Shown here one piece after another: positions 41,669 through 58,547 of a DNA stretch of 64,000 nt; position 1 is the first letter of the stretch; each line of letters opens with the position of its first letter. The DNA comes from Candidatus Vogelbacteria bacterium (lineage in GTDB: Bacteria > Patescibacteriota > Minisyncoccia > Phycocordibacterales > XYD1-FULL-46-19): contig JAIOOX010000002.1 of NCBI GenBank assembly GCA_021414225.1, positions 236,597 to 300,596 on the forward strand. The letters are read 5' to 3'. The position numbers were made by a program, and so were the translations under genes. A model generated the notes under the pieces. The model searched no databases, had not been told where the DNA came from, and saw only the letters and a list, made by a program, of their open reading frames with translations.

Positions 41669-41866
41669 ATGGTATCGTTGCCCGATTTTAAAAAAGCACT
41701 TGGACCTCTTGGCGACAAACTCACAGAAAAAGAGATTGAGCGTCTCAATATTCTTTCAGCTCAACTTGCTGGTTCTCTTTTCAATATGTGGAGCCGAAAA
41801 CTAAAAGAGAGTAGGCAGAATGAGAAACCAATAATTTATGGAAACGACCAAATACGCAATAATTGA
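41669..41866 (+). CDS. small hypothetical protein overlapping recombinase start (possible directionality factor)
   Basis: A 65-aa ORF ending 29 nt inside the recombinase ORF. It has no known domain. Confidence 0.25.
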   Translation: MVSLPDFKKALGPLGDKLTEKEIERLNILSAQLAGSLFNMWSRKLKESRQNEKPIIYGNDQIRNN

Positions 41867-43547
41867 CTGTCGCGTTAGTGACCCGCAACAGTTGAAAGGT
41901 GGAAGCTTGGAAGACCAAGAGGTTATTGGTCGTGCAACAGCAATGCGCTACAACGCAACAGTTGCGCATGTTTTTAGAAAACCACATTCAGCAACAACTA
42001 CAGAAAGAGATGATTTGGATGAAGTCATAGATTTTATTAAGAAATATCCTCATCAAATTCATTACTATATTTTTAAATGCATTGACCGATTTACCCGTGC
42101 CGGCTATCCCGAATACGAAAGAAGAAAAGCAGAATTAGAAAAACTAGGAGTTCAAATTATTGACTCCTACGGCGTAATTCAGCCGATACAAAACACACTC
42201 GACCACCTTGGTCAAAAATATAAATGGAGCATGTATTCTCCAAGTGAAATTGCTGAAATGATTTCGGCATATCAAGGAAAAGCAGAAGCAAGAGAGATTT
42301 TAACTCGAATGGTAGGTGCCGAAATCCGTCTTGTGCAAGAGGGGTTTGCTGTAAGACGCGCACCTGATGGATTACATAACAAGCGTATTTTTATTAATGG
42401 AAAAGATAGGGTCATTAGAGAAGCCGGAGAAAAAGCTCATTATTTTCAAAAGATGTATGAACTCCGAGCAGATGGTATTGATGATACGCAAATCGTCAAC
42501 ATTTTAAATGCCACAGGTTTCAAAACAAATATCTATACACGGTGGGATAGGAGTGACCCAGAACATCCTCGAAAAATTGGAACCAGAGGCGGTAAGGTTC
42601 TTACTGTAAAGCAGATGCAACGATATTTACTCCAAACAGAGTATGCCGGTGTAAGTTGTGAGAAGTGGAATAAACACAAGCCGGTCAGAACGCAGTACTT
42701 TGACGGCATTGTTTCTATAGACACTTTCAATCGAGCCAATCGTGGAAAAGTTTACATAAAAGTATCAGAGGGTGACGAGATTGAAGTGCTCTACAACTAC
42801 TCTCCTTGGGGCCGTGTAAAGCGTCTAAGAGACAATCCGATGTACCCATGGAAATGTATAGCGTGTCCTTTCTGCAATAAATCAATGCTCGGTAGTCCGT
42901 CTACTGGAAAGTCGGGTGCTAAGTTCCATGGGTATCATTGTGGTGGTTCAAAATCAGGCGACAGAGCACATGAATATTTCCGTCTTGATAAGAAAACTTT
43001 TGAGAGTAATGTGAAAAATTACTTAGACAGTTTGAAATTCGAGGATGGATTTTTAGCAGGATTGGAATTGCACCTACTTAGCGAATATCGAGAAAGAGAA
43101 AAAGAAGTTGTACTCGAATCTTCTGCAATAAGCCGAACGGTATCTGATTTAAAAGCAGAGTTGGCCCAAAAGTTGGAAGCATTCGGTTTTGCTGAAAGTC
43201 CAATCACTAGGAAAATGATTGAACAGCAAATTGCTGAACTGGATGAACAGATAAAGGGAGCAGAGAGCCAACGAATGGAAATTGAAGTAAATGAGAAGAG
43301 TATCCGTGTCTTTGTACGCTATGCAAAATACGTAATGGAACACCCGGCGGAAATCCTTACAGAAGCTTGTGATTTACAGGGTCGCCGTGCTCTTTTGGGT
43401 CTGTTCTTTGAACAAACCCCGACCTATAACGAAATACTTAATGGAACACCAAAATTAACGGCTCTTTTCAAGCTTTCTGAAGAGTTTAAGGGTAATAAAA
43501 CCCAACTGGTGACCCTACGGGGAATCGAACCCCGATTTAAGCCTTGA
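41838..43547 (+). CDS. large serine recombinase (phage-integrase type resolvase/invertase family)
   Basis: An N-terminal resolvase catalytic domain (YAIIDCRVSDPQQ...) is followed by a recombinase domain, a zinc ribbon (CIACPFCNKSMLGS...HGYHCGG) and a C-terminal coiled coil. The last 41 nt are antisense to tRNA-Glu. Confidence 0.85.
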   Translation: METTKYAIIDCRVSDPQQLKGGSLEDQEVIGRATAMRYNATVAHVFRKPHSATTTERDDLDEVIDFIKKYPHQIHYYIFKCIDRFTRAGYPEYERRKAELEKLGVQIIDSYGVIQPIQNTLDHLGQKYKWSMYSPSEIAEMISAYQGKAEAREILTRMVGAEIRLVQEGFAVRRAPDGLHNKRIFINGKDRVIREAGEKAHYFQKMYELRADGIDDTQIVNILNATGFKTNIYTRWDRSDPEHPRKIGTRGGKVLTVKQMQRYLLQTEYAGVSCEKWNKHKPVRTQYFDGIVSIDTFNRANRGKVYIKVSEGDEIEVLYNYSPWGRVKRLRDNPMYPWKCIACPFCNKSMLGSPSTGKSGAKFHGYHCGGSKSGDRAHEYFRLDKKTFESNVKNYLDSLKFEDGFLAGLELHLLSEYREREKEVVLESSAISRTVSDLKAELAQKLEAFGFAESPITRKMIEQQIAELDEQIKGAESQRMEIEVNEKSIRVFVRYAKYVMEHPAEILTEACDLQGRRALLGLFFEQTPTYNEILNGTPKLTALFKLSEEFKGNKTQLVTLRGIEPRFKP

Positions 43548-44731: not shown

Positions 44732-46471
44732 CTAATCTGGGTTTTCGATCACTTTTATTTTCTCGGCCAAGTATTTCTCAGCTTCATCTAGATTCTCGGT
44801 CATTTCAGCCATGATTTTACTCTCTTCTTTGGTTAATTTACGTTTGGTACTAGCTCTTTCAAGCATCTTCAAGTGACGCTTGGTATCACCCTTAAGAATT
44901 TGGAATACTTTATGGACTTCTTGTTCGGTGTGAACCAAGTCACGTCTTAATTTTCGTTTCAGTGAATTTAATTTTTTGATGCCAAGATAAATCATCAGCA
45001 ACAATAGGAAGAGTAGTACCAAGAAGGTGATCGCGATAGAAATTATTTGGATAGCTCTAGTACCTAGAGACATAACCTCAGATTGTTTGACGGTGATGTA
45101 GACCTTACCTGTTGGCAGACTCTTAGCTCCTGAACCACGAACCGTCTCAGCCCAAACATTCAAGATACCGACTGTTTCTATTGAATCACTACTATAGAAG
45201 AAGATTTTATCTTCGTCTGGTCTCACTAAATAACTTTTAGCTTCTTGATCTTCTGCTTGGAACCATAAGACTATCTCGCCATCAGCATAAGGAGACTTAC
45301 CCCTAATCTCTACCGAAGAGCCTACCTTAACAGCTTCTGGGTAATGTGTAATCTTAGGCGCTTGAACTTCTGGTGAGTCGACTAGGACATCTGTACTGTC
45401 ATAATTTCCAGCTCGGTCATAAACTCGCAATTCTAACTTATAACTACCAGCCGCTAGTGGTGGTAAGTTAAACTTGGTTGGTCCATTAGCAGTGGCTGGA
45501 ACCTCGATCAGTTTATCTTCGTTGTTATAAACTACATAACTCTTAACACCGGACAAAGTGTCCTTTGCCCAAGCTTCCAAAGAAATCAAGTCCTCTTCAG
45601 TCTTCTCAGCCTTAACGGTAATGTTTTCCGGAGCGTTAGTATCAATCTTTATTTTACGACTAGTGATCTTGCCCCAACCAGCCTCATTCTTTAATCGGGC
45701 ATTGAGATAGAAGGTTCCCTCAGTTAGGCCGGTCAGTATTTTTTTCTTAATCGGTGGATCATAAGTGACTGTTGGTAAGGTGCTAGCTGATTTTGCCAAC
45801 ACTAGTTGTACCGCGGTGACACCTGAAGATAATTCCCAACTAAAAGTGCCTTCTGTATTGTTATACCAACTATTTTGATCCGACATATCATCAGAAGTGA
45901 TGACTGGAGCACCAGGTACCGCCCCTTGAGAAACAACCGGTAGTGGAACTGGTGTTGTTGGCACAACTACTGGCGGTGGTACCACTACTGGAGTCACACC
46001 AGTAATCGTTACGGAAGAATCTCTAGTTTGCGATAGTACATTGGTACCATTGCCATCATCAGCCCTGATCGCCGAAGAACCAAAAGAGAGCTTAGCCACC
46101 CCCGCTTTTTTGGCTCTAAAATTTATTCGCAATGAATTACCAGCTTGACCAGAGTAACCAGGTGTTGGTAAACCACCATTGAAGTTAACGGTGCCACTGG
46201 TATTAGAAAAAGTTGGCTGTTCGACCCAAATGTTAAAGATAGAGCCAGTGTTGCTAACCGAATCAACACTGACTAAATCGGTTGGGAAATGAATCGTTCC
46301 TTCAGCACTATTGATAGCAACACCGCCAGTCGAGAGATAAACTGTTCCAGAAAAAGTTCCATTTTCAGCTACCTGGGTCTTATCTAAAATAAAATACATA
46401 TCAGCCGCCCAAACTAAACCAGGGGCTAATATTAATCCTAAAGTTAAAATTAAGTTAATTAATTTCCTCAT
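44732..46471 (-). CDS. large cell-surface protein: signal peptide, beta-rich/Ig-like extracellular region, C-terminal TM anchor and cytoplasmic coiled-coil tail
   Basis: The start was trimmed to the Met giving a signal peptide (MRKLINLILTLGLILAPGLVWA). A P/V-rich linker (PVVVPPPVVVPTTPVPLPVV) and a C-terminal TM (IQIISIAITFLVLLFLLLLMIYLGI) are followed by a K/E-rich tail. Confidence 0.55.
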   Translation of the reverse strand: MRKLINLILTLGLILAPGLVWAADMYFILDKTQVAENGTFSGTVYLSTGGVAINSAEGTIHFPTDLVSVDSVSNTGSIFNIWVEQPTFSNTSGTVNFNGGLPTPGYSGQAGNSLRINFRAKKAGVAKLSFGSSAIRADDGNGTNVLSQTRDSSVTITGVTPVVVPPPVVVPTTPVPLPVVSQGAVPGAPVITSDDMSDQNSWYNNTEGTFSWELSSGVTAVQLVLAKSASTLPTVTYDPPIKKKILTGLTEGTFYLNARLKNEAGWGKITSRKIKIDTNAPENITVKAEKTEEDLISLEAWAKDTLSGVKSYVVYNNEDKLIEVPATANGPTKFNLPPLAAGSYKLELRVYDRAGNYDSTDVLVDSPEVQAPKITHYPEAVKVGSSVEIRGKSPYADGEIVLWFQAEDQEAKSYLVRPDEDKIFFYSSDSIETVGILNVWAETVRGSGAKSLPTGKVYITVKQSEVMSLGTRAIQIISIAITFLVLLFLLLLMIYLGIKKLNSLKRKLRRDLVHTEQEVHKVFQILKGDTKRHLKMLERASTKRKLTKEESKIMAEMTENLDEAEKYLAEKIKVIENPD

Positions 46472-47346
46472 GATTTTCGACGTTTTATTTTGATGATCAG
46501 ATATCCGACTAAACCAGCAACTATAACCAAGACTACAAAGATAATTGTTTTTAACCAATTAGAACCACTATTCAGTTTGATTGTTTTAATTCGTTCATTA
46601 CCAGCATTATCAATCGCTTTGACTTTAACTGTGCTGGTTAATTTTTGATTTTGTAAAACGTAAACATTACCCGACTTAACCGTCTCAAATCCACTTTCGG
46701 TCACTTCATAATCTTTTATTCCCGACTCATTGTCCGAACTATAAAAACTAATAAAATATTTACCATCGTAAAGAGTTAGGTCCTTACCTAAATCAATATT
46801 AAAACTCTGAGGAGCCAAGTCATCAGACGATACCAAAGTCGATAACTCGTCATCGTTGTTTGGAGTTTTTAGAACTGATAACTTAACCGGCAAACCCGCC
46901 ACCACCACTTTAGTCCCAAGACCATCATTTAGATAAGCACTGACCCCCTCAAAATCCAACTGAATAGCTTCCGTTGTTTTTGGTTTAATCGCGATCGTAA
47001 AAACATTTAAGGCTCCCCCAAAAACCCCAGATTGAGTACCACCAGCAAAAGCAATTATATTTTTATCTAGAGACGGTTTAATTGGCCACAGATTAAAAAT
47101 TGAGCCACCGGTAATAATAGAGACAACATCATCAGAAGAACTTATTTTTATCTTTCCTTCTAGAGCATTAATTTCTCTAGTTTTATCTTTATTCTCTAAT
47201 AAAATTTTGACCAAACTAGTTTTACCAACTTGTAGTGGTTGTTGAGGTGGTTGAACAGTGATAGTTAGAGCTTGAAGATAAAAAACAGGCAACAAGAAAA
47301 CAGCCAGTAAGCTAGTGAGGTACAAAGTTTTGTTTTTAATATCCAT
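46468..47346 (-). CDS. cell-surface protein with signal peptide and C-terminal TM anchor
   Basis: A 292-aa ORF with an N-terminal signal (LYLTSLLAVFLLPVFYLQALT) and a C-terminal TM plus basic stop-transfer (IIFVVLVIVAGLVGYLIIKIKRRKS). Confidence 0.5.
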   Translation of the reverse strand: MDIKNKTLYLTSLLAVFLLPVFYLQALTITVQPPQQPLQVGKTSLVKILLENKDKTREINALEGKIKISSSDDVVSIITGGSIFNLWPIKPSLDKNIIAFAGGTQSGVFGGALNVFTIAIKPKTTEAIQLDFEGVSAYLNDGLGTKVVVAGLPVKLSVLKTPNNDDELSTLVSSDDLAPQSFNIDLGKDLTLYDGKYFISFYSSDNESGIKDYEVTESGFETVKSGNVYVLQNQKLTSTVKVKAIDNAGNERIKTIKLNSGSNWLKTIIFVVLVIVAGLVGYLIIKIKRRKS

Positions 47347-47358
47347 ATAATTTAAGTA

Positions 47359-49839
47359 TTAAATAGCTCGGCCAGCCGTCCCCCATTGCGACAACAAGAT
47401 AGAGAAGTCGATCGAGTTAACAATATTGTCACGATTAATATCGACACAAGTGTTTTTAAATGGCGCTGGTTTTTTCCAGAACGATAGCAGAATAGAAAAG
47501 TCGACCGAATTAACTTTACTATCACCGTTAAAATCGGCTCCTTTACATGTTCCAGGGGTCACAGTACCACCAGATGGGCCTCCACCACCACCTCCTCCTC
47601 CACCGCCACCAGAACCACCACCTCCCCCACTAGTTGGAGCGGTGGCTGTAAAACTACGTGAAGCTCCAGAACTTTCTGTTCCGAAGTAAACAATCATCTT
47701 GAAGTAATAATTACCAGCGGTCGGCACATCAGCTGTCAAAGTGGTATTGAAGTCTTCACCAGCATTTATGTATTTAGCTGCCACCCCGTGGAAGATGTCA
47801 TCTCCTCCGCCACAGACGTCGCTAGCACCAGAAACTACACACCATTCATATTGATATTCATATCCAGTCGAACCTTCGTTCGTAATAGTGACATTGGCTG
47901 CTACCTGAGGAGTAACAGAATCAGAGATACTATTAATGATCACCTGGGCTGGAGCGGTTACGACAGTCCAATAATCATTACCTGGCAAAGTTTTACCGGT
48001 TTCAACATTGGCTGAGAAGACACTCTCCCATGTACCAGCCGGAGCGTTACCAGCGGTGGTGTAAGAATAACTATAAGTACCAGTCGCTGTTCTGGTCATG
48101 GCTACCGCATTAGCAATCACGTTACGACTAGGATCATAGATAGTAACAGTCGGCACGACGAGTGAGTCTGTTAATGTGCCGTTATAGATAGTAGTAATAG
48201 TTGCTAAGTAATTACTGCCGGCAGTGATACTACCAAAGTCAGAAGTAGAAACTGTCCACGGTGATTGAGATGACAATGTCAGTGAAGTTAGAGTTCTGGT
48301 TGTGGCGTTCCAAACATCTGTAGCTAAAGCACCAAATGAACTTAATGTTCGACTAGAATAACCCCAAACTGAACCTGGTAGGGTCGCCAATAGTGACGAT
48401 GAGGCATTACCTACCACTGTGTTGGTATTAGAATTTACAGATGAAATAACAGAAGCAGTTTGAGTATTGGTATTACTATTTACAACCGCAGCAACACTGG
48501 TCGACGCCGTTAAGATTGAACTGTTAGTGTTGGTATTAATGTTTGATTCACTAGTAGTGATGGCGGCGGCGAGTGATGATGAAGCGGAGTTAACATCAGA
48601 CAAAGTAGCGAGTGATCCAGAAGTTAGACCAGCCCCAGTGAGAAACGGTGTCAGTATTAGCATTCACTGCTGAAGTGACAGCCGCTGTTTGAGAGTTAGT
48701 GTTAGCGTTGATGATGGCCGCTAATGATGAAGACGCAGTTAGGATACCACTGTTAGTGTTGGAGTTGATTGCTGATTGACTGGTAGTGATGGCGGCGGCG
48801 AGTGATGATGAAGCGGAATCGATAGCACTTAGTACCCCACTGTTGTCACCGGCCGCAATTAATGAACCAATTGAAGAAGATGAAGTTAGGATAACTGAGT
48901 TAAGCATCGCGTAGATTGATGACGACGCTGAAGTGACGGTTGGCAAGATAGCAGCTGGAATGGTAGCAAGCAGTGATGACGAAGCGGTTGTGATTTGAGT
49001 AGTGATCACCCCTTGAGAAGTGGTAAGAGCGCCATTTAAGATCGCCACCACACTAGATGAAGCGGAAGCGATAGCTCCATCAACTGTGGTGAAGCGAGTA
49101 CCGAGAGTTGAAGCGAGTGATGATGACGCCGTTAAGATTGAACTGTTAGTGTTGGTATTAATGTTTGATTCACTAGTAGTGATGGCGGCGGCGAGTGATG
49201 ATGAAGCGGAGTTAACATCAGACAAAGTAGCGAGTGATCCAGAAGTTAGACCAGCCCCAGTGAGAAGATAGATCCCGGTAAAGTAGCAAAGAGTGAGGAG
49301 GAAGCGTTATTAATAGTGTCATAAAGAATATTATCATTACTATTTAATTCATCTGTCGTCGCCAATGATCCACCGTTAATAGTGGCGTCAGTCAAAGTAC
49401 GGGTTGAACTCGCCCATACAGCCGAAGAAATTGTACTACTGGATACAATCACCGCCCCTACTGAAAATGTTTTATCAACTTTGACCAATTCCCCACCAGT
49501 ACCACAACTCATACTGGCTGGCCAAATACCTTCCGGACCGATCGCGGGAATAGAATAATCATACCAATGCCATCCACTTGCCGCCTCACTCATCGCCCCG
49601 TTAGTCACAACAGCACCCCCACTTGGATCATAAATATTAGCGACACAATCTTCAGTCGAAGGCGTAAAATCATCTTCATAGACAAACTCCCCTATTGTCG
49701 CAGTGGTACCAGGAGCAAATCTCTCATAAGCCGCATAAACGGTAGTAGAAAAACCAACAATTAAAAATAGAAAAAATATTCCTAGAAAAAATCTGGTTGA
49801 AAAAAGATAACGCAGTTTATTAAATTTTCGGTGAGACAT
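47359..49839 (-). pseudogene. repeat-rich secreted protein with C-terminal dockerin-like domain, interrupted by two frameshifts (three ORFs: 49839-49246, 49225-48596, 48663-47359)
   Basis: The ORF 49246-49839 carries the signal peptide (MSHRKFNKLRYLFSTRFFLGIFFLFLIVGFSTTVYA). The middle and 3' ORFs carry tandem repeats of SASSSLAAAITTS(E/Q)S.INTNTNS.ILTAS. The 3' ORF ends with a Gly linker (GGGGGSGGGGGGGGGGGPSGG) and a type-I dockerin duplicated motif (DFNGDSKVNSVDFSILLS ... DINRDNIVNSIDFSILLS). The frame breaks lie just outside two 142-bp perfect direct repeats. Confidence 0.5.
48503..49266. repeat. two 142-bp perfect direct repeats (48503-48644 and 49125-49266) inside the dockerin-protein gene
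   Basis: The 142 nt gacgccgttaagattgaactgtt...ccagccccagtgagaa are identical at both positions, about 620 bp apart. A further diverged copy lies near 48720-48800. Confidence 0.7.
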
Positions 49840-49956: not shown

Positions 49957-50613
49957 ATGCTTAAAAAAATTCCGGAAAAATATTCCTTCAAATTAGTCTC
50001 TCTATCGGAGCTAAAGAATCTTTCTAGTTCGAAAGATTCTTTAGCTGTAAGCAGTGGCCTTGAAATTTCTCCAGAAACAATTCCAGCGACTAGTTCTCCC
50101 GATCAAGAAATAGACAATAATAAAAGAAACTTTCTAAAAATTGCTGGTATTGCTGGTCTTGGTCTAGTTGCCTCACAAATTCTACCCAAAAAAGCTGATG
50201 CACTCATCATGGGTAGCACCCCGTCATCAAGTGTGGTTGGTATCAAAGATGACACCAATACTCGAATTAATCCGGCCACTGAAGAAACTCTGACTTCCCT
50301 ACTCACCGGACAAGGAGTGACCAAATTAACAACCAGTCTCGCCGCTTCCGGCAACGTGCGCACTCCAGCCTCGGGCAAAAAGATTCGCGTCTATGCCTCA
50401 CGCTTCTCCCTCACCGCCGACGCCACTTCAGTTTCTTTTCGCTTCACCGCTGGTGGCACAGATTATGAAAAATATTTAGCCCCAAAAACTGGCGGACTGT
50501 ACGGATCAAATAATCATCCTAATTATGTCGAGGGTGGGGTGGATGAAGTGTTATACTGCAATATTGCAGGAACAACAACCGTGCAGATTAATATTGATTA
50601 TTTAGAAGTTTAG
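49957..50613 (+). CDS. hypothetical protein with internal Tat-like motif (KRNFLKIAGIAGLGLVASQ)
   Basis: A 218-aa ORF. A K-R-x-F-L-K motif followed by a hydrophobic stretch and AxA-like ADA resembles a twin-arginine signal, but it lies about 55 aa from the annotated start. Confidence 0.35.
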   Translation: MLKKIPEKYSFKLVSLSELKNLSSSKDSLAVSSGLEISPETIPATSSPDQEIDNNKRNFLKIAGIAGLGLVASQILPKKADALIMGSTPSSSVVGIKDDTNTRINPATEETLTSLLTGQGVTKLTTSLAASGNVRTPASGKKIRVYASRFSLTADATSVSFRFTAGGTDYEKYLAPKTGGLYGSNNHPNYVEGGVDEVLYCNIAGTTTVQINIDYLEV

Positions 50614-50627
50614 TTTTGTAAATTATT

Positions 50628-53276
50628 ATGGCTATACGCGCTGTTGAACACATCTTTAACGGAGACACGACCCCAATCGCTTCTTACGATTCAACCAAAA
50701 CCAATTTGGGTACTTTGATGATTCAAAAGAGTGGCCCCAACCCAGAAGATAATTTCGTGGGGCCACTACCCGTGGCAGTAGCGAGACCAATGGAAGAATC
50801 AACTGGTGTTGCAATGGTGTTTCCTCATGCTATCACCTACAGTGATACGATAGACTGGGTTTTTCTACTCGAGAACGGTGTTGCCGCCGCGAAACGTATC
50901 TTCCTTTACGAATACAACAAATCACTGGCGACATACAATTGGAAGGGATTTATTACCATGACCACTCCCACAGCTACCAACGTCAACCGTGGCTTCCGCG
51001 CCCTTCGCTACCAACACACCACCGGCACAGTAGCTGTCGCTGCTCCAGTCTCTGTTTATGCTACTGGTACAGTCACAGTTTCTCTCGCGGGCTTGGTCAC
51101 TCACTCTGCTACTGGTTTTTTAGCTACGTACGTTGGTAAAATGATTGGTTTTGGCAGTACCAACGTGGCTCAGATTAATTGTTGGTATCCAATTATTTCT
51201 TTTGCCACCACAGCTACCATGAACATCTTGGGTGCCTCGAGTGCGTATGCCGCTGGTACTGCGTTTGTGATTGCGGATTGTATTGTGACTGGAACCGGAA
51301 CCCTGTTTCAGACAGATGGTATTGCTGCAGGAACCGCTACCACCGCCATCGCCGGTGGTCTCGGGCCACGCATTGGCTTTGGCTCAACTGATCCAACCCA
51401 AATCACACAGTGGTACCATATTGGACAGATTAACAGTGACACTTCAATTGGCCTCACCACTTCACCAGGCGTCATTCCTGCCGGTACCGCTTATGTTATC
51501 GAAGAGCTTCGTTTTGCTCTCACATTAACCAACACCACTGTCGCCAACGGCGGACTCTATCTCCTTAAAGGTGCTGGCTACCATGACTTCACCACTGCCG
51601 GTTCGACTTTTCCTTCAATTACAAGTTCGGTCAATGACCAGAGAGGTGTGTATTGGCTCTCCGACGCCGGCACCACTGGTAACGTTGTTACCAACCAAGC
51701 GGCCTGTGGTCTCGCTATTGATACTGAGCTCAATAAAGGCTTACATTATGCGTACGTTCTGGATGGTATTGGTTCTACATTTATGCGCTGTTTCCGCTAT
51801 AACTTGCGCGCGACTGGTACCATCACCTCAGGTAAAATGTTAATGAGCATTGCTTATACGACCTCGACTTCATCAGCCACAACCGTAACCGTATCAGGCA
51901 CAGGTGTAACTGCTTCAGGCGCCGTCTTTACAGCATCAATGGTAGGCATGCAAATAGGTTTTAGCACCACTAGCCCTGCCAACGTAACCACGTGGTACAC
52001 AATTGCCTCATTTACTTCTTCTACTGTTGTCACCCTTTCTTCTTCTGCCGGAAGTATTGGACCAGGAGCGGCTTTTATTATCGACTCAGCCGACGTGATT
52101 TCGACCGCCCCTCAATTAGTGACTGGTACTGTCGTCGGCGTAAATAATGGTCGTGTTGGGACCCTTACTCATGGCCCAGGCGCCAATGAAAAATCATTGT
52201 ATTTTTTGACCGTAACTCGTATTTATCGAGCGGCAATTTCTAAAATATTTTCCGGCAATTTGGGCTGGATCTCTGACAATCGACCAGAAATTCCACCGGG
52301 CTCAGTGAGCACGTTTGCTGCCACATCTTTACTTAACGTAATTGAAATTTCAGATGCTATTGATCGACTGATTGTGCTTACTACAGGAGCTGCAGGTATA
52401 AAACACTATGTCACTCGCTATCCGGCAGTAGCAGGAGACCAGTTTGACCGGTTTTTTGGACTTGATGATAAACAACAAGACCAATCACTCGCTGATCCTA
52501 ATGCTCCGATTCATTTTAATACCGCCTCTCAAGTAACTTCCATTTGGAGTGAAAATGGCATCGCCCATATCGTAAAACATGGTGCGACAGCAGCCCTCTG
52601 TCAGATGTATGCCCTACCACTTGGTGCTCACTGGTTTTATGCAGAATCAACTAACCAGCGAGTAATAACACCTGAGATATTTACTCCTGATTGTAGCTCA
52701 TTCAGAAGAATGCTAACTTCGGTTGTCGACCACTTAGGGAGCGAGGAATTCCGTATTCCAACAGCGTCAACCTTCTCCTTTTATAGAACGAGTGGAATCA
52801 CCGACAACACTGGTTCTTGGACTCGGTTACCAGAAGATGGCGATTTATCAGGCCTCTCACCTTCAAGTAGTATTCAATTTATGTTTGAATTTACCACCAT
52901 TAGCCTGCTCTGTGTTCCTGGTAGAATTATGTCTCTGGCACTGCTCTATGATGATTACTCAACCGATTCTCATTACCAGCCATCAAGCGGTAAGACGGTC
53001 GAGGCTGATAAACAATTTGCGTGGCGTTTCTCCACTGCTTTTGGTTCAGCCGTACCAACATTACGAATCCGCCTCTTCGACGCAGTTACTGGTGGACTAC
53101 TTGTCGATGACGATTCAGTCACTCAGGCCGGTGATTGGGAAAAAACAGTCGATGGTGGCACTAATTGGATATCGTATGATGCTACCGATAAAGGCAATGA
53201 GATCACCTATATCCGCTACACACCAGCAACTTTGCCAGATAACATTAAAGTCAGATCCTTGCTGACACAGAATTAG
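50628..53276 (+). CDS. large paralog 1 of a tandem triplet (882 aa), novel ~75-aa internal repeats, no signal peptide
   Basis: A conserved N-terminal head (MAIRAVEHIFNGDTTPIASYDSTKTNLGTLMIQKSGPNPEDNFVGPLPVAVARPMEE) is followed by repeated GT.xV.GTAVTG...IGFGST.P..IT.WY.I......I.L.SS.G.I..G.AYVI units. The C-terminal module (HYVTRYP...DDKQQDQS...IQFMFEF...DSHYQ...YIRYTP...VR.LLTQN) is conserved in all three. Confidence 0.6.
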   Translation: MAIRAVEHIFNGDTTPIASYDSTKTNLGTLMIQKSGPNPEDNFVGPLPVAVARPMEESTGVAMVFPHAITYSDTIDWVFLLENGVAAAKRIFLYEYNKSLATYNWKGFITMTTPTATNVNRGFRALRYQHTTGTVAVAAPVSVYATGTVTVSLAGLVTHSATGFLATYVGKMIGFGSTNVAQINCWYPIISFATTATMNILGASSAYAAGTAFVIADCIVTGTGTLFQTDGIAAGTATTAIAGGLGPRIGFGSTDPTQITQWYHIGQINSDTSIGLTTSPGVIPAGTAYVIEELRFALTLTNTTVANGGLYLLKGAGYHDFTTAGSTFPSITSSVNDQRGVYWLSDAGTTGNVVTNQAACGLAIDTELNKGLHYAYVLDGIGSTFMRCFRYNLRATGTITSGKMLMSIAYTTSTSSATTVTVSGTGVTASGAVFTASMVGMQIGFSTTSPANVTTWYTIASFTSSTVVTLSSSAGSIGPGAAFIIDSADVISTAPQLVTGTVVGVNNGRVGTLTHGPGANEKSLYFLTVTRIYRAAISKIFSGNLGWISDNRPEIPPGSVSTFAATSLLNVIEISDAIDRLIVLTTGAAGIKHYVTRYPAVAGDQFDRFFGLDDKQQDQSLADPNAPIHFNTASQVTSIWSENGIAHIVKHGATAALCQMYALPLGAHWFYAESTNQRVITPEIFTPDCSSFRRMLTSVVDHLGSEEFRIPTASTFSFYRTSGITDNTGSWTRLPEDGDLSGLSPSSSIQFMFEFTTISLLCVPGRIMSLALLYDDYSTDSHYQPSSGKTVEADKQFAWRFSTAFGSAVPTLRIRLFDAVTGGLLVDDDSVTQAGDWEKTVDGGTNWISYDATDKGNEITYIRYTPATLPDNIKVRSLLTQN

Positions 53277-53279
53277 TCC

Positions 53280-55706
53280 ATGTCGCTACGCGCTGTCGAA
53301 CACATTTTTAACGGAGATACGACCCCAATCGCTTCTTACGATTCTACCAAAACAAATTTGGGTACTTTGATGATTCAAAAGAGTGGCCCCAACCCAGAAG
53401 ATAATTTCGTGGGGCCACTACCCGTGGCAGTAGCGAGACCAATGGAAGAATCGACAGCGGTGACAATGATTTTCCCATCAGTAATTACTTTTAGCTCAAC
53501 GGTGGACTGGGTTTTTTTGATAGAAAACGTTGCATCAGCAGCAAAACGTATCTTCCTTTACGAATACAATAAATCACTCGCGACCTACAATTGGAAGGGT
53601 TTTATCACAGCTACCACGCCAGCCGCTACCAACGTTGCTCGTGGTTTCCGCGCCCTAAGATACCAACACACGACCGGCACCGTCGCTGTCGCTGCTCCTG
53701 TTTCAGTCTACGCAACTGGAACAGTAACAGTCACGATCGCTGGACTAGTAACTCACTCTGCTACCGGCTTTCTTGCGACGTATGTGGGAAAAATGATCGG
53801 CTTTGGAAGCACGAACGTCGCTCAGATCAATTGTTGGTACCCAATCATCTCTTTTGCTACTACTGCTACAATGAACATCTTGGGCGCCTCGAGCGCGTAT
53901 GCAGCTGGTACCGCGTTTGTGATTGCTGACTGTATTGTGACGGGGACAAGCACTTTATTTACGACTGACTTGGTAGCCGCCGGCACCGGCGCTACCGCAG
54001 TTGCTGGCGGTCTCGGACCGCGTATTGGGTTTGGCTCAACTAACCCCGAGTTGATTACTCAGTGGTATCACATCGGGCAAATTAACAGCGACACCTCCAT
54101 TGGTCTCACCACTTCACCGGGCGTGATACCTGCAGGCACACCCTATGTGATTGAGGAACTTCGCTTTGCTATTGCCCTCACCAACACGACTCCTGCCAAC
54201 GGTGGCCTCTTCCTACTTAAGGGTGCCGGGTATCATGATTTCACTACTGCTGGATCAACATTTCCGTCGATCGCCACCTCAGTCACCAATCAACGTGGCG
54301 TATATTGGCTTTGTGATGCCGGAGCTGGAGCCGTCACCAACACCGCCGCCAACGGACTTGCTGTCGCTACTGAAGTAGATAAGCAAACCCATTTTGCTTA
54401 TGTCTTGAATGGCACCAACACATCAAATGCAGTTATATACAAATATAATCTACGCGCCAACAACACTGTAGCCACTGGAAAAATGCAACTCGCTGGTGCC
54501 AACATTGTTATCAGTGGTACCCAAGCGATAACCGGTACTATCCCCAACCAATCAGCGCAAAACTTGGAAATTGCTACTACGTCGCATGGTCCGGGGTCTG
54601 GCTCATCGTATTTATATTTTGTTACCACCACCCGCCTATACTGCGCCGCAGTCTCTGCCATCACTGCCGGCAACACCCCTTTTGCTGTAGCAGCTGCCGC
54701 TCGACAAGAAATCCCTCCAGGAGGGGTGGCTACTTTCCCCGCCACCGCAACAATGACCAACATCGCCTATCTCAACACTATTGATCGTTTTGTGATTACC
54801 AATTATACCGCCAACACATCACTTCGCCATTACGTTACAAGATACCCCGAGACCGATACAACACCATTTGATCATATTTTTGGTATCGACGACAAACAAC
54901 AAGACCAATCACTTTCTGATCCTCGATTGGCAATTCATTTCAATACTGGCGCTCAACTCTTATCGGTAGCAAGCAGTGAAGGAGTTATGCATATCGTGAG
55001 AATGGGTGCTACCGCCTTATTAAACCAATTATACGCACTGCCATTTGGAGCTCATTGGACATACGCTTCAGCAACTAGCCAGAGAATTATCACCCCATCA
55101 ATTACTACTACGGATTGTGTTAAATTTGATCAAGTACTTACCTACGACATTCATCATCTTGGCGAGGATGTCTTCGGATTACCTCCTGAAACATATCGAA
55201 TATATTATCGCACAGCCGACATCGGGAGCGACGCCACCAGCTCATGGGCACTTGTTGGTGAGGGCGGAGATTTATCGGCCGTGACTCCAGCCAACGCCAT
55301 TCAGTTTATGTTTGAGTTTTTCACCATTGGCGCCCTTTGCTTGCCATCACGCATCATGAAAGTGGCAGTCACCTATGAAGATGGCTCAACCGATTCGCAT
55401 TACCAATTATCAGCTGGCCTATCAGATATCACCAATGAGCACTTCACGTGGAGGTTCGCTCAACCTTTTGGTGGCACGGTGCCGGAATTAAAAATTGAGC
55501 TATTCAACGCCGCTACTAACGCTTCTATTTTTACCGATCCCACCGTCGGGCCAACCAATGGTGCTTGGACAAAATCAATTGATGGTGGCAGCAACTGGAT
55601 AGGCTACAATGATACAGACAAGACCAACGAGATCACTTACATACGCTATACCCCTAACTCCACCCTTGGGAGCATAACTGTCAGGGCACTGCTAACTCAA
55701 AATTAA
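53280..55706 (+). CDS. large paralog 2 of the tandem triplet (808 aa)
   Basis: It has the same head, repeats and C-terminal module. Its first ~170 nt are nearly identical to paralog 1, including a 97-nt block with 100% identity. Confidence 0.6.
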   Translation: MSLRAVEHIFNGDTTPIASYDSTKTNLGTLMIQKSGPNPEDNFVGPLPVAVARPMEESTAVTMIFPSVITFSSTVDWVFLIENVASAAKRIFLYEYNKSLATYNWKGFITATTPAATNVARGFRALRYQHTTGTVAVAAPVSVYATGTVTVTIAGLVTHSATGFLATYVGKMIGFGSTNVAQINCWYPIISFATTATMNILGASSAYAAGTAFVIADCIVTGTSTLFTTDLVAAGTGATAVAGGLGPRIGFGSTNPELITQWYHIGQINSDTSIGLTTSPGVIPAGTPYVIEELRFAIALTNTTPANGGLFLLKGAGYHDFTTAGSTFPSIATSVTNQRGVYWLCDAGAGAVTNTAANGLAVATEVDKQTHFAYVLNGTNTSNAVIYKYNLRANNTVATGKMQLAGANIVISGTQAITGTIPNQSAQNLEIATTSHGPGSGSSYLYFVTTTRLYCAAVSAITAGNTPFAVAAAARQEIPPGGVATFPATATMTNIAYLNTIDRFVITNYTANTSLRHYVTRYPETDTTPFDHIFGIDDKQQDQSLSDPRLAIHFNTGAQLLSVASSEGVMHIVRMGATALLNQLYALPFGAHWTYASATSQRIITPSITTTDCVKFDQVLTYDIHHLGEDVFGLPPETYRIYYRTADIGSDATSSWALVGEGGDLSAVTPANAIQFMFEFFTIGALCLPSRIMKVAVTYEDGSTDSHYQLSAGLSDITNEHFTWRFAQPFGGTVPELKIELFNAATNASIFTDPTVGPTNGAWTKSIDGGSNWIGYNDTDKTNEITYIRYTPNSTLGSITVRALLTQN

Positions 55707-55709
55707 TCC

Positions 55710-58547
55710 ATGCCATACCGCGCCGTAAAACATACATTCACCGGAAGCACCACTCCTATTACTTCCTACGATTACACCAAAACCAATTTGGGAACATTAA
55801 TGGTGCAAAATACTGGATCGCTCGCAACTGACAAATACGTCGGGCCAATTCCAATGGCCGTTGCAACTCCAATGCAAGAAGTAGTCGATACTGTGGGCAC
55901 TGTTTCTGTATCTGGTACAGCAGTTACCGGCAATAGCACCAATTTTCAAACGTCCATGATCGGTATGGCGATCGGATTCGGCTCAACAGACCCTGCAAAA
56001 GTAACAGCGTGGTACAGCATCTCAGCTCGAGCATCAACTACCGGCATCACTCTGGGTTCTTCAGCGGGAACTATCGGCGCCACTACGCCGTATGTTGTCG
56101 TCTATAACACACCCATGATGTATCCCCATGTCATGACATATAGCTCGACTATTGACTGGGTGTTTATGATTGAGAACTTGGCCACCTCTGTTGCACCAAG
56201 AAAGATTTGTCTGTATGAATACAATAAAACTACTTCGGTCTACACTTGGAAAGGTTTCGTTGTCGCAACCCTACTGACCTCAGCCGCAGCGCACACTTTG
56301 CGTGGCTTTCGAGCACTGAGATATCTACACACCACCGGCACCGTTGAAGTCTCAGGCACTGCCGTTACCGGATCAGGCACCGCATGGCTCGACGAAGGTA
56401 TTGCTGTCGGTGCGCGTATTGGTTTTGGATCGACCGACCCAACAGCTATTGTTAGTTGGTATGTTATCTCAGCCATTGGCGGTGAGACAGGAATCACTCT
56501 TGCAAGTTCTGCCGGCACTCTTGCCACTGGCACCGCATACGTAATCGAGGAACTCCGTTTTGCGATCACCTCCACCAACGCCACCGTCGCCAATGGCGGA
56601 TTACACCTCGTCAAAGGAGTAAATTATGATGATTTCGTGCCTACAGGCACCACGATTGCCGTCGCAACGACGACTGACAATATCAAAGCGACGTATTGGC
56701 TCTCTGACGCCGGCACTGCCGGTAACGTCGTTACCAACCAATCAGCGTGTGGACTCACCGTCGCTCCTGAAGTGAGCAAGGGCTTGCACTATGCGTATGT
56801 CCTTGATGGTTTTGGTTCGACTTTTGCGCGCGTCTACCGCTACAACCTCCGCGCCACCGGTACTATCGCTTCAGGCAAAATGACCATGTCGATTGCCTAT
56901 TATACAACTGGCACCGTGCAAGTAGCCGGCACCGCAGTCACTGGATCGGGCACAACATTCACTTCAAGCATGGTTGGAATGAAAATTGGCTTTAATGCGA
57001 CAAGCCCGGCCACGGTCACAACCTGGTATACGATCGCCTCTTTTACTGATGCGGCAAACATTACCCTGACAACATCAGCAGGAACAATTGGTGCTGGCGC
57101 GGTATATATTATTGATACAGCTGATGTTGTCTCTACCGCCCCCCAACTGGTAACCGGTACGTTATCAGGAGTAAATAACGGCCGATACGGCACTCTCAAT
57201 CATGGCCCATGGGCAGGAGAAGCGTCCTTGTTTTTTGTCACTACCACCCGTATTTATCGCGCCAATGTCGCCAAAATATTTGCCGGCAATTTGGGCTGGA
57301 TTTCTGATAACCGCCCAGAAATTCCACCAGGATCAGCAAGCACCTTCCCGGCGACATCACTTTTGAGTAGTGTCGAGATCGCAGACAATATGGATCGACT
57401 TATTGTCGCCACTACTGGCGCTACTGGGGTCAGACACTATATCACCAAATACCCCACTGCAGCCGGAGATCCTTTTGACCACATCTGGGGTGTAGATGAT
57501 AAACAACAAGACCAAGCGTCGTCTCTGGGCAATGCCTACATCTCTTCTGGCACTGTTGCCGTGTCAGGCACGGCAGTCACCGGCACCAACACCTTCTTTG
57601 TCGCCGCCATGGTGGGCTATCGTATCGGATTCGGATCAACCAATCCAACCGCGATTTCTACTTGGTATACCATTTCCGCTTTTACCTCTCTGACATCTAT
57701 TACCCTTTCATCGGGCGCCGGCACAATCGGTGCAGGCTCGGCCTATGTCATTGATTGGAATAGCTATACGGTGCCTCATTTTAATACCGCTTCTCAAATC
57801 ATTTCTCTATGGAGTGAAAATGGTATTGCTCATATCGTCAAACATGGCACCACCACCGCCCTATCACAAATGTATTCATTACCGCTTTCTGCACATTGGA
57901 CATACGCAGCATCGACTAACCAGCGAGTAATCACTCCTGCCTTATATACCCCCGACTGTACTCAGTTTCGTAATGTGGCAGTTACTCATGATGATAGACT
58001 TGGAACAGGAGAATTTGCCATCAATACCGAACCATATCGTATTTATTTTAGAACAAAGGGCATTATCAACAACGCTGGTGAATGGACTCTCATCGATCCT
58101 GATGGTGACTTGACTGGCCTTGTCGGAGCGCCACGCATCCAATTCATGTTTGAATTTTCAACTGTTGGTACGTTCTGCATTCCGGCTCGCATCATGAGTC
58201 TCACGGTCGTCTATGATGATACCGGCACCACCACCGATTCTCATTATCAACCATCACCAGGATTATCAAATGCGAGCAGTAAACAATTTGTGTGGCGCTT
58301 TGCGACGGCTTTTGGTGGAACCGTACCAACCTTAAGAATTAGACTATACAATGCCGTGACTAATGATCTGCTTGTCGACGACTACACTACTTCTACCAAC
58401 AGTGGCACCTGGGCAAAGTCGACCAACAGTGGTGGCGCGTGGGGATCGTACAATACGACCGATAAAGGTAATGAAACCACCTATATTCGCTACACACCAG
58501 CGTCATTAGGTGATAATATAAAAGTAAGAGCAGTATTAACCCAATAA
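55710..58547 (+). CDS. large paralog 3 of the tandem triplet (945 aa) with four clear copies of the ~75-aa repeat
   Basis: The head is MPYRAVKHTFTGSTTPITSYDYTKTNLGTLMVQ. Repeat starts include GTVSVSGTAVTGNSTNF, GTVEVSGTAVTGSGTAW, GTVQVAGTAVTGSGTTF and GTVAVSGTAVTGTNTFF. The C-terminal module is conserved. Confidence 0.6.
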   Translation: MPYRAVKHTFTGSTTPITSYDYTKTNLGTLMVQNTGSLATDKYVGPIPMAVATPMQEVVDTVGTVSVSGTAVTGNSTNFQTSMIGMAIGFGSTDPAKVTAWYSISARASTTGITLGSSAGTIGATTPYVVVYNTPMMYPHVMTYSSTIDWVFMIENLATSVAPRKICLYEYNKTTSVYTWKGFVVATLLTSAAAHTLRGFRALRYLHTTGTVEVSGTAVTGSGTAWLDEGIAVGARIGFGSTDPTAIVSWYVISAIGGETGITLASSAGTLATGTAYVIEELRFAITSTNATVANGGLHLVKGVNYDDFVPTGTTIAVATTTDNIKATYWLSDAGTAGNVVTNQSACGLTVAPEVSKGLHYAYVLDGFGSTFARVYRYNLRATGTIASGKMTMSIAYYTTGTVQVAGTAVTGSGTTFTSSMVGMKIGFNATSPATVTTWYTIASFTDAANITLTTSAGTIGAGAVYIIDTADVVSTAPQLVTGTLSGVNNGRYGTLNHGPWAGEASLFFVTTTRIYRANVAKIFAGNLGWISDNRPEIPPGSASTFPATSLLSSVEIADNMDRLIVATTGATGVRHYITKYPTAAGDPFDHIWGVDDKQQDQASSLGNAYISSGTVAVSGTAVTGTNTFFVAAMVGYRIGFGSTNPTAISTWYTISAFTSLTSITLSSGAGTIGAGSAYVIDWNSYTVPHFNTASQIISLWSENGIAHIVKHGTTTALSQMYSLPLSAHWTYAASTNQRVITPALYTPDCTQFRNVAVTHDDRLGTGEFAINTEPYRIYFRTKGIINNAGEWTLIDPDGDLTGLVGAPRIQFMFEFSTVGTFCIPARIMSLTVVYDDTGTTTDSHYQPSPGLSNASSKQFVWRFATAFGGTVPTLRIRLYNAVTNDLLVDDYTTSTNSGTWAKSTNSGGAWGSYNTTDKGNETTYIRYTPASLGDNIKVRAVLTQ

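What the first reader, a model, noticed from the sequence alone, without database searches (positions are those of the whole stretch)
47359..49839. Dockerin-bearing repeat protein broken by frameshifts exactly at 142-bp perfect direct repeats
- A signal peptide, a tandem SASSSLAAAITTS...NTNTNS repeat array, a poly-Gly linker and a duplicated dockerin calcium-binding motif lie on three consecutive minus-strand ORFs.
- Together they would form one ~820-aa protein.
- The two frame breaks fall immediately after the two identical 142-bp repeats (48503-48644 and 49125-49266).
- Explanations:
  - a genuine recombination-driven on/off or length variation of a surface protein;
  - slipped assembly of a repeat array.
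- The linker PPPPPPPPPP ORF on the opposite strand is an antisense artefact of the Gly run.
Basis: seen in the sequence. Interest (0 to 1): 0.5.

Follow-up and report, generated by a model that had tools for sequence, protein, structure and literature searches.

The report
Mis-assembled dockerin surface-protein gene
The "frameshifted" dockerin repeat protein is almost certainly one intact gene of a Candidatus Vogelbacteria (CPR) genome that the assembler stitched together wrongly at a 141-base repeat, so the breaks are an artefact rather than a biological switch.

Summary
There are three minus-strand ORFs, a perfect 142-nt direct repeat at 48503-48644 and 49125-49266, and a frame break at the gene-sense 5' edge of each copy. 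There is also a signal peptide, a Gly linker, a Pfam-supported dockerin and an antisense poly-Pro ORF.

The breaks are very probably contig joins with sequence missing.
- An independent Logan assembly of run SRR15633504 is 100% identical to the window up to base 49266. It then continues in frame for 81 nt ("...LPGSI-WSYSARALTTFGTLADDVWSASGRTLS") that occur nowhere in the window.
- A 94%-identical strain (L086) reads through the second break in one ORF. It carries 122 extra nt exactly at 48644|48643, and pasting them in restores the frame.
- Once the coincidental flanking T is assigned to the upstream sequence, the repeat is 141 nt. That is MEGAHIT's largest default k, but which assembler made this MAG is unknown.
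- About 48 of 80 homologous loci are intact, 20 stop at a contig end in the repeat region, and 10 are broken by scaffold N-gaps.
- Recombination between the two copies cannot restore the frame.

The gene itself belongs to a conserved cassette with two membrane-anchored cohesin-like proteins. Interest is low.

The parts
49267..49839 (-). Segment X: the real 5' part of the gene. It holds the signal peptide or N-terminal anchor (49839-49732, MSHRKFNKLRYLFSTRFFLGIFFLFLIVGFSTTVYA|A), the N-terminal beta-sandwich-like domain and the first Ser/Ala/Thr-rich module, ending in ...ASSSLFATLPGSI.
   Evidence: ORF list and translation. There is a weak MG2 hit. The segment aligns with the N-termini of intact homologues. 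It is 100% identical to Logan contig L090 down to base 49266.
49265..49266 (-). Junction 1, an artefactual join. Base 49266 (T) is the first base of the Trp codon that follows LPGSI in the independent assembly. From 49265 on, the window jumps straight into the repeat.
   Evidence: L090 matches the window perfectly for 574 nt from the ATG and then continues GGTCTTACAGTGCTCGAGCT... (WSYSARALTTFGTLADDVWSASGRTLS) for 81 nt that are absent from the whole window.
49125..49266 (-). Repeat copy A. It is a 142-nt perfect repeat (141-mer 49125-49265 plus T at 49266) encoding (x)LTGAGLTSGSLATLSDVNSASSSLAAAITTSESNINTNTNSSILTAS.
48645..49124 (-). Segment Y: 480 nt of diverged Ser/Ala/Thr/Asn-rich modules. 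It is in frame with copy A and has no internal stop.
   Evidence: It is 90.7% identical to L086 1-536 in one continuous ORF.
48643..48644 (-). Junction 2, an artefactual join or missing sequence. The related strain has 122 extra nt here, encoding (I)VGNASSSLFATLPTAIWSASGRTLSSFGTLVADVWTNGTRT.
   Evidence: DNA alignment of the window with L086. Inserting the 122 nt gives a 677-aa reading frame from copy A to the stop with no internal stop.
48503..48644 (-). Repeat copy B (141-mer 48503-48643 plus T at 48644).
   Evidence: Logan contig L085 (94,473 bp; the 8,065 nt fetched are 100% identical to the window) ends at 48532, inside this copy.
47359..48502 (-). Segment Z: the last repeat modules, a conserved beta-sandwich region (MG2-like, TVTIYDPSRNV...) and a second conserved domain, the Gly linker (47631-47566), and the type I dockerin (47535-47389) followed by the stop.
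   Evidence: Pfam Dockerin_1 33.5 bits and weak MG2. Many invariant columns in the alignment. Coordinates.
47426..47689 (+). Antisense poly-Pro ORF. It is not a gene, only the complement of the Gly-linker codons.
46468..47346 (-). Downstream partner gene (292 aa; NCBI K8Q91_02205). It has a signal or TM segment, a cohesin-like module, an FN3/Ig-like module and a C-terminal TM helix.
   Evidence: AF2 model with mean pLDDT 87.5. Foldseek against PDB returns cohesins as top hits (2w1n E 3e-10; 2xdh TM 0.75). Homologues lie directly downstream in 78/80 loci.
44732..46471 (-). Second downstream gene (579 aa). Its N-terminal module is homologous to the cohesin-like module of the 292-aa protein. It also has Ig-like (Big_13) repeats, a TM helix and a charged C-terminal tail.
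   Evidence: BLASTP E 3e-7 over residues 54-147. Big_13 33 bits. Homologues downstream in 72/80 loci.

Best explanation
The three ORFs are pieces of one intact gene for a secreted surface protein carrying a C-terminal dockerin. The public assembly of this Candidatus Vogelbacteria MAG reconstructed it incorrectly.

The gene contains several near-identical modules (W..RTL..DVW..TRT, then LTGAGLTSGSLATLSDV..., then NTN-rich stretches). I infer that two assembly pieces, each starting with the same 141-nt k-mer, were concatenated without Ns onto the ends of the preceding pieces, and that the short repeat-bounded sequences between them were lost. At least 81 nt are missing at 49266|49265 and about 122 nt at 48644|48643. 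That would create two out-of-frame junctions, each exactly at the 5' edge of a perfect repeat.

Shown:
- Real sequence is missing at junction 1.
- A 94%-identical strain is continuous and in frame at junction 2.
- The family is normally intact and is often mis-assembled.

Inferred:
- The exact assembler mechanism (a MEGAHIT k=141 graph followed by scaffolding).
- That junction 2 is also an artefact in this strain.

Functionally (inferred), the protein is exported and held on the cell surface by its dockerin, which would bind the cohesin-like modules of the two membrane-anchored proteins encoded immediately downstream.
For: 1. Same population, independent assembly. Logan contigs of SRR15633504 are 100% identical to the window over 8,065 nt (L085) and 1,467 nt (L090). 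L090 runs 81 nt past 49266 in the ORF1 frame, encoding the W module, and that sequence is absent from the window. L085 stops at 48532, inside repeat copy B.
2. Related strain. L086 (94% nt identity) has one ORF of at least 649 aa through Y, copy B and Z, with 122 additional nt (= 2 mod 3) exactly at 48644|48643. Inserting them leaves no stop.
3. Module grammar. In 65 N-free homologues the GSLAT module is preceded by the W..R.L module in about 105/108 cases (my reading of the listed exceptions). SSLxATLPxx is followed by W in 27/28 cases. Both window junctions violate this rule.
4. Family survey of 80 loci. About 48 are intact, 20 are cut by a contig end at or near the repeat region, and 10 are broken by a 100-N gap. 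Eight of those 10 gaps are flanked by perfect repeats of exactly 55 or 127 nt. Intact genes carry perfect internal repeats of up to 526 nt, always spaced by a multiple of 3.
5. Repeat length. The repeat is 141 nt once the flanking T is assigned to the upstream sequence. From my own knowledge, 141 is MEGAHIT's largest default k. The only other N-free broken locus, L007, comes from a MEGAHIT plus IDBA-UD-scaffolded assembly (PMC9875498) and has a 120-nt repeat (119+1).
6. Selection. The gene sits in a strongly conserved cassette (78/80 and 72/80 loci), which argues it is under selection.
Against: - No reads could be mapped, so a minority allele carrying the window's junctions cannot be excluded.
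- It is not documented that the deposited MAG was built from SRR15633504, or with MEGAHIT plus a scaffolder. The k=141 match is circumstantial and was noticed post hoc.
- Junction 2 is resolved only in a 94%-identical strain, not in the same population.
- I could not reconstruct step by step how the scaffolder produced joins in which the upstream piece lacks the expected k-mer overlap.
- In L007 the second frame shift lies about 20 nt upstream of the repeat edge, so the two cases are not identical in detail.
Confidence: 0.88

Rival explanations
1. Real pseudogene or deletion alleles. In this strain, or in a subpopulation, two genuine deletions removed the W modules upstream of both repeat copies and inactivated the gene.
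For: The junctions are present in a deposited 409-kb contig with no Ns. Intragenic perfect repeats and variable module numbers are natural in this family, so recombination is frequent. L007 shows another N-free broken copy.
Against: It needs two independent deletions that end at the same base of the only perfect repeat in the gene, both without microhomology. The 100%-identical independent assembly carries the undeleted sequence at junction 1 without branching there. None of the three pieces has an additional stop or other sign of decay. The repeat length equals a default assembler k. Among the survey loci whose contig spans the whole gene, 10 of the 11 broken copies contain an explicit 100-N assembly gap.
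Confidence: 0.08
2. Phase or length variation. The two 142-nt repeats mediate reversible recombination, or slipped-strand mispairing occurs at the T runs, switching the surface protein on and off.
For: It is a surface-exposed repeat protein, and the perfect repeats flank a 480-nt segment. This is the class of gene in which contingency switching is known (general knowledge).
Against: The deletion (X-R-Z) and duplication (X-R-Y-R-Y-R-Z) products both still terminate at the same stop after 197 aa. The T runs at the breaks are 2 and 3 nt, far below slippage-prone lengths. No on/off pair of alleles was found: relatives are simply intact.
Confidence: 0.03
3. Programmed ribosomal frameshifting (-1 at the first break, +1 at the second) yields the full-length protein from the sequence as assembled.
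For: The two shifts compensate each other: ORF1 and ORF3 are in the same frame and the total length of 2,481 nt is a multiple of 3.
Against: Neither site has a slippery heptamer or a shifty stop (sequence). Both junctions also lack 25-42 residues that homologues and the close relatives encode there. Relatives need no frameshift.
Confidence: 0.01

Closest known systems
Non-cellulosomal cohesin-dockerin pairs (e.g. the Clostridium perfringens GH84C cohesin-FN3 module, PDB 2w1n; the Archaeoglobus fulgidus cohesin, PDB 2xdh)
   Same: The gene has a C-terminal type I dockerin with two Ca-binding segments. The neighbouring 292-aa protein is predicted to fold as a cohesin followed by an FN3-like module, and its best structural matches are these entries. 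No glycoside hydrolase is attached to the dockerin.
   Different: The cohesin-like modules do not hit the Pfam Cohesin HMM. The cohesin carriers are single-module proteins with a C-terminal membrane anchor in a CPR bacterium. The dockerin carrier is a Ser/Ala/Thr/Asn-rich modular protein of unknown activity. Binding has not been tested.
Dockerin-domain envelope protein SEML1_0315 of the Saccharibacterium Southlakia epibionticum (PMC10633639)
   Same: It is a dockerin-bearing envelope protein in a Patescibacterium. That paper classes it as essential and speculates that it targets host-cell glycans, either for adhesion or for degradation.
   Different: It comes from a different class (Saccharibacteria versus Paceibacteria/Vogelbacteria). 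Homology beyond the dockerin was not tested here.
Assembly fragmentation or collapse of repeat-rich genes in short-read metagenome assemblies
   Same: Contig ends, N-gaps flanked by k-length perfect repeats, and gap-free mis-joins all fall inside the repeat region of this gene family. [quoted passage not shown]
   Different: Here the join carries no Ns, so it looks like two compensating frameshifts. Three NCBI locus tags (K8Q91_02210 to 02220) fall between the flanking genes, which suggests it was annotated as three features.

Membership tests
Type I dockerin module (Pfam PF00404) | HMM score above the curated gathering threshold | tested here: met
   33.5 bits against a cut-off of 22.9, residues 377-423 of ORF3
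Type I dockerin module (Pfam PF00404) | Duplicated ~22-residue F-hand segment with the D-x-N-x-D Ca-binding pattern | tested here: met
   DFNGDSKVNSVDFSILLS and DINRDNIVNSIDFSILLS. D769/N771/D773 and D800/N802/D804 are invariant in the alignment.
Cohesin-dockerin system | A cohesin module encoded in the same genome or locus | tested here: inconclusive
   The predicted fold of the 292-aa neighbour matches solved cohesins (Foldseek E 3e-10 to 1e-5, target TM 0.65-0.76), and its adjacency is conserved in 78/80 loci. The Pfam Cohesin HMM gives no hit. Only distant relatives are named or scored as cohesin (P0159, P0162).
Cohesin-dockerin system | Ca2+-dependent binding of the dockerin to the cohesin | not testable with these tools
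   This needs biochemistry, or at least a complex prediction.
Phase-variable (contingency) surface-protein gene | A reversible repeat-mediated change converts the OFF frame into an intact ON frame | tested here: not met
   The deletion and duplication products of recombination between the repeats both stop after 197 aa. The T runs are only 2-3 nt.
Phase-variable (contingency) surface-protein gene | ON and OFF alleles coexist in the population | tested here: inconclusive
   The independent assembly of the same population shows only the in-frame continuation at junction 1. Minor alleles cannot be assessed without reads.
Assembly artefact (gap-free mis-join in a repeat) | Genuine sequence of the same population is missing at the junction | tested here: met
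   The 81-nt in-frame tail of L090 is absent from the window, while the other 1,467 nt are 100% identical.
Assembly artefact (gap-free mis-join in a repeat) | Close relatives are continuous and in frame across the junction | tested here: met
   L086 has +122 nt at 48644|48643 and a single ORF of at least 649 aa. Junction 1 is not covered by L086.
Assembly artefact (gap-free mis-join in a repeat) | Repeat length equals the assembler's k, and other assemblers break at the same repeat | tested here: inconclusive
   The repeat is 141 nt, which equals MEGAHIT's default maximum k, but the assembler of this MAG is undocumented. The Logan contig ends inside copy B, and the L086 contig starts inside copy A with a 55-nt repeated prefix. 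Family-wide, most of the 100-N gaps are flanked by 55- or 127-nt perfect repeats.
Assembly artefact (gap-free mis-join in a repeat) | No reads span the junction; reads are clipped on both sides | not testable with these tools
   No read-mapping tool is available.
Genuine pseudogene | Accumulated disabling mutations (extra stops, decay) and loss in relatives | tested here: not met
   All three pieces are free of internal stops in their own frames. The 94%-identical strain is intact across the region it covers. About 48 of 60 complete homologous loci are intact.

The most novel reading that the evidence does not exclude
Both junctions might be real in a subpopulation. Frequent illegitimate recombination among the W/LTGAG modules of this cohesin-docked surface protein would then generate truncated or length-variant alleles alongside the intact one. 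That would be a population-level way of varying or silencing a surface protein that may contact the host in an episymbiotic CPR bacterium.
Probability: 0.07. Interest if true: 0.4.

Novelty: not a real feature. Interest (0 to 1): 0.08.

Why it matters
As biology it matters little. The apparent double frameshift is an assembly error, and the underlying gene is an ordinary member of a widespread Patescibacteria family.

It has practical value:
- Three NCBI locus tags (K8Q91_02210 to 02220) lie on this gene in the public MAG, so it is probably annotated as three fragments of what is really a conserved, probably longer (about 890 aa or more) surface protein.
- About 40% of the 80 surveyed homologous loci are truncated or broken in the repeat region. 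Counts of pseudogenes, gene lengths or "phase-variable" genes for this family drawn from MAGs are therefore unreliable.
- Gap-free joins that begin with a k-length perfect repeat are a recognisable signature that can be screened for.

A modest positive by-product is that the dockerin gene is almost always followed by two membrane-anchored proteins with cohesin-like modules. This gives a testable model for how these bacteria display the protein.

Tried and rejected
Searches and checks that led nowhere:
- Exact-sequence look-ups of ORF1 and ORF3 found nothing.
- The fused-protein search returned no hit above 78% identity, so the MAG's own fragments are not in that protein collection.
- The GTDB genome scan and the JGI metagenome scan did not contain the same population. 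The breakthrough came from searching the intact neighbouring genes instead.
- Tandem Repeats Finder found no array.
- The Pfam Cohesin HMM, a PDB sequence search and NCBIfam gave nothing useful for the neighbours.
- A literature search for SRR15633504 found nothing, so the MAG's assembly method remains undocumented.
- One search used a wrong reading frame for segment Z. It was discarded and redone.

Ideas considered and rejected:
- A single internal frameshift within the repeat. The two junctions enter the repeat in two different wrong frames.
- The repeat as an inserted mobile element or intron. Removing both copies does not restore the frame.
- A tandem duplication of the 622-nt unit. Only 142 nt are identical.
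- One-step gene conversion. That would leave the donor junction intact.
- A DGR template/variable repeat pair. The copies are identical and both lie inside the coding sequence.
- A weak resemblance between the repeat's first 19 nt, read in another frame (SHWGWSNFW), and the W module. I judged it coincidental.
Full report
OBSERVATION

The region holds three consecutive minus-strand ORFs: 49839-49246 (197 aa), 49225-48596 (209 aa) and 48663-47359 (434 aa). A perfect 142-nt direct repeat lies at 48503-48644 and 49125-49266, 622 nt apart. In the whole 64-kb window the only other perfect repeat of 45 nt or more is a 98-mer between two paralogues, so this repeat is not chance.

Written in gene orientation the locus is X (573 nt), R_A (142), Y (480), R_B (142), Z (1,144). 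Both frame breaks sit at the 5' edge of a repeat copy. X enters R_A one base short, and Y enters R_B one base long. The 3' edges are in frame, and ORF1 and ORF3 share a frame.

The domain features are also real. Pfam Dockerin_1 scores 33.5 bits against a cut-off of 22.9, and two MG2-like hits are weak. Tandem Repeats Finder sees no strict tandem array. The repeats are diverged modules.

WHAT THE GENE IS

A conceptual fusion of 826 aa finds 106 relatives. All named ones come from Patescibacteria (CPR). Many are single proteins of 761-992 aa covering 97-100% of the query and carrying dockerin and MG2-like domains.

The alignment shows a module grammar...SSLxATLPxx, then W.YS.RTL.SFGTL..DVW.N.TRT, then LTGAxLTSGSLATxSDV..ASSSL..., then NTN-rich stretches. 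In 65 N-free homologues the GSLAT module is preceded by the W...R.L module in about 105 of 108 cases. The script counted 90; nearly all of the other 18 are RRL/RQL variants by inspection. SSLxATLPxx is followed by W in 27 of 28 cases. Both junctions in the window break this rule: LPGSI and NANTDTV run straight into LTGAGLTSGSL. From this I predicted that sequence was missing at both junctions, with lengths of 1 mod 3 and 2 mod 3 respectively.

FAMILY SURVEY

I fetched 80 homologous loci from species-representative genomes and classified them.
- About 48 have the N-terminal domain and the dockerin end in one ORF.
- 20 are cut by a contig end at or near the repeat region.
- 10 are "broken" by a 100-N scaffold gap. 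Eight of these gaps are flanked by perfect repeats of exactly 55 or 127 nt, which are typical SPAdes k values (my knowledge).
- One, L007 from Lac Pavin, is broken without Ns and has a 120-nt perfect repeat spaced 359 nt apart.

Intact genes often contain long perfect internal repeats (131-526 nt), and these are always spaced by a multiple of 3. Perfect repeats are therefore natural in this family, and out-of-frame ones go with assembly trouble. The Lac Pavin data were assembled with MEGAHIT at default settings and scaffolded with IDBA-UD (PMC9875498).

DECISIVE COMPARISONS

Searching the intact neighbouring genes identified the source. The 292-aa downstream gene is 100% identical to NCBI K8Q91_02205 (MCE9628787.1) of a Candidatus Vogelbacteria MAG, on a 409,485-bp contig. 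The upstream 218-aa gene is K8Q91_02225. Three locus tags therefore lie on the broken gene.

Logan's independent assembly of run SRR15633504 contains the same population. L085 is 8,065/8,065 nt identical to the window and L090 is 1,467/1,467 nt identical.
- L085, a 94-kb contig, ends at window 48532, inside repeat copy B.
- L090 matches the window without a mismatch for 574 nt from the ATG, that is, through base 49266. It then continues in the same frame for 81 nt, encoding ...LPGSI-WSYSARALTTFGTLADDVWSASGRTLS. This is exactly the predicted W module, and the sequence occurs nowhere in the window. A 92%-identical strain in another run (L092) has the same continuation.

For the second junction, contig L086 of a related MAG (GCA_964651575.1, 94% nt identity over 1,821 aligned nt) carries one uninterrupted ORF of at least 649 aa through Y, copy B and Z. 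Between the bases aligned with window 48644 and 48643 it has 122 additional nt (= 2 mod 3), encoding (I)VGNASSSLFATLPTAIWSASGRTLSSFGTLVADVWTNGTRT. Pasting these 122 nt into the window gives a 677-aa frame from copy A to the stop with no internal stop. L086 itself starts inside copy A, with a 55-nt prefix that is repeated in copy B. That is another contig break in the same repeat.

MECHANISM OF THE ARTEFACT (INFERRED)

Both comparisons place the breakpoints one base inside the 142-nt repeat. The flanking T belongs to the upstream sequence: TGG for Trp after X, and GTT/ATT for Val/Ile after Y. The shared block is therefore exactly 141 nt, MEGAHIT's largest default k (my knowledge). L007's repeat is 119+1.

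Two outgoing unitigs of a branching k-mer both begin with that k-mer. If a scaffolder appends them to the preceding contigs without Ns, and the short repeat-bounded unitigs in between were dropped, the result fits what is seen: identical 141-mers, natural in-frame 3' continuations, and abrupt out-of-frame 5' edges with modules missing.

I could not document which assembler produced this MAG, and I could not reconstruct every step, so this part remains inference.

WHY THE BIOLOGICAL READINGS FAIL

- Recombination between the two copies cannot act as a switch. The deletion and duplication products both still terminate after 197 aa.
- The T runs at the breaks are 2 and 3 nt long.
- There is no slippery heptamer, and both sites lack 25-42 encoded residues, so programmed frameshifting would not give a normal protein.
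- A genuine pseudogene would need two independent deletions ending at the same base of the only perfect repeat, with no further decay, in a population whose independent assembly shows the undeleted sequence.
- A minority deletion allele cannot be excluded without reads. I give all real-allele readings together about 0.1.

FUNCTION AND CONTEXT

The AlphaFold2 model of the 292-aa neighbour (mean pLDDT 87.5) shows an N-terminal helix, a beta-sandwich (about residues 27-160), a second beta-domain and a C-terminal TM helix (264-291). Foldseek against PDB puts cohesins first: 2w1n (a cohesin-FN3 double module) at E 3e-10, 2xdh at target TM 0.75, and many type I cohesins at TM 0.65-0.76.

The Pfam Cohesin HMM does not hit, so membership rests on the predicted fold only. 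The N-terminal module of the next gene (579 aa, Big_13 Ig-like repeats, TM helix) is homologous to this cohesin-like module (E 3e-7).

Homologues of both genes lie directly downstream of the dockerin gene in 78/80 and 72/80 loci. The most likely function is therefore a secreted modular protein docked by its dockerin onto membrane-anchored cohesin-like proteins. This is a non-cellulosomal cohesin-dockerin display system. Wang et al. (PMC10633639) report a dockerin-domain envelope protein as essential in a cultivated Saccharibacterium and speculate that it targets host glycans. No binding or activity was tested here.

VERDICT

The feature is an assembly artefact in an ordinary, conserved gene. 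Interest is 0.08.

Noticed in passing
window 44732-47346 (-), with 47359-49839: The dockerin gene is the first gene of a conserved three-gene cassette. It is followed by a 292-aa and a 579-aa membrane-anchored protein whose N-terminal modules are predicted to be cohesin-like, although the Pfam Cohesin HMM does not detect them. The cassette is present in 78/80 and 72/80 homologous Patescibacteria loci.
   Followed up: partly
window 50628-58547 (+): Three tandem paralogous genes of 882, 808 and 945 aa lie at 50628-53276, 53280-55706 and 55710-58547. The first has no Pfam or NCBIfam hit; the other two were not scanned. The N-termini of the first two are nearly identical (162 nt at 97%, with a 98-nt perfect repeat at 50703/53355). 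Logan contig L090 ends at 50732, inside this repeat, so it is another assembly-fragile spot. Homologues of the first gene occur in 42/80 loci, next to the dockerin gene.
   Followed up: partly
window 49957-50613 (+): A divergently oriented 218-aa gene (NCBI K8Q91_02225) has only a sub-threshold TAT-signal-like hit. It is very widespread, with 598 relatives at E<=1e-20, and is found near the dockerin gene in 33/80 loci. Its function is unknown.
   Followed up: no
L007 6278-6397 and 6637-6756 (LacPavin_0818_WC40_scaffold_11455, Zambryskiibacteriota): The homologous gene in this MEGAHIT plus IDBA-UD-scaffolded MAG is split into three frames at a 120-nt perfect repeat (spacing 359, = 2 mod 3) with no Ns. 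The first break skips the W module exactly at the repeat edge. The second is a 1-nt shift about 20 nt upstream of the second copy. It is probably the same kind of artefact.
   Followed up: partly
window 41838-43547 (+): A 569-aa ORF has only a faint Resolvase (PF00239) hit in the precomputed gene table of the Logan contig. It lies next to a small HTH_11-like gene and may be a large serine recombinase or mobile-element remnant near the cassette.
   Followed up: no
L005, L006, L011-L015, L018, L023, L025, L030, L036, L044, L059, L076 (genome-contig loci): Fifteen public MAG scaffolds carry a 100-N gap inside this gene. Most gaps are flanked by perfect repeats of exactly 55 or 127 nt. In ten of them the gap puts the two halves of the gene in different frames, so automated annotation will report split genes or pseudogenes.
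   Followed up: yes
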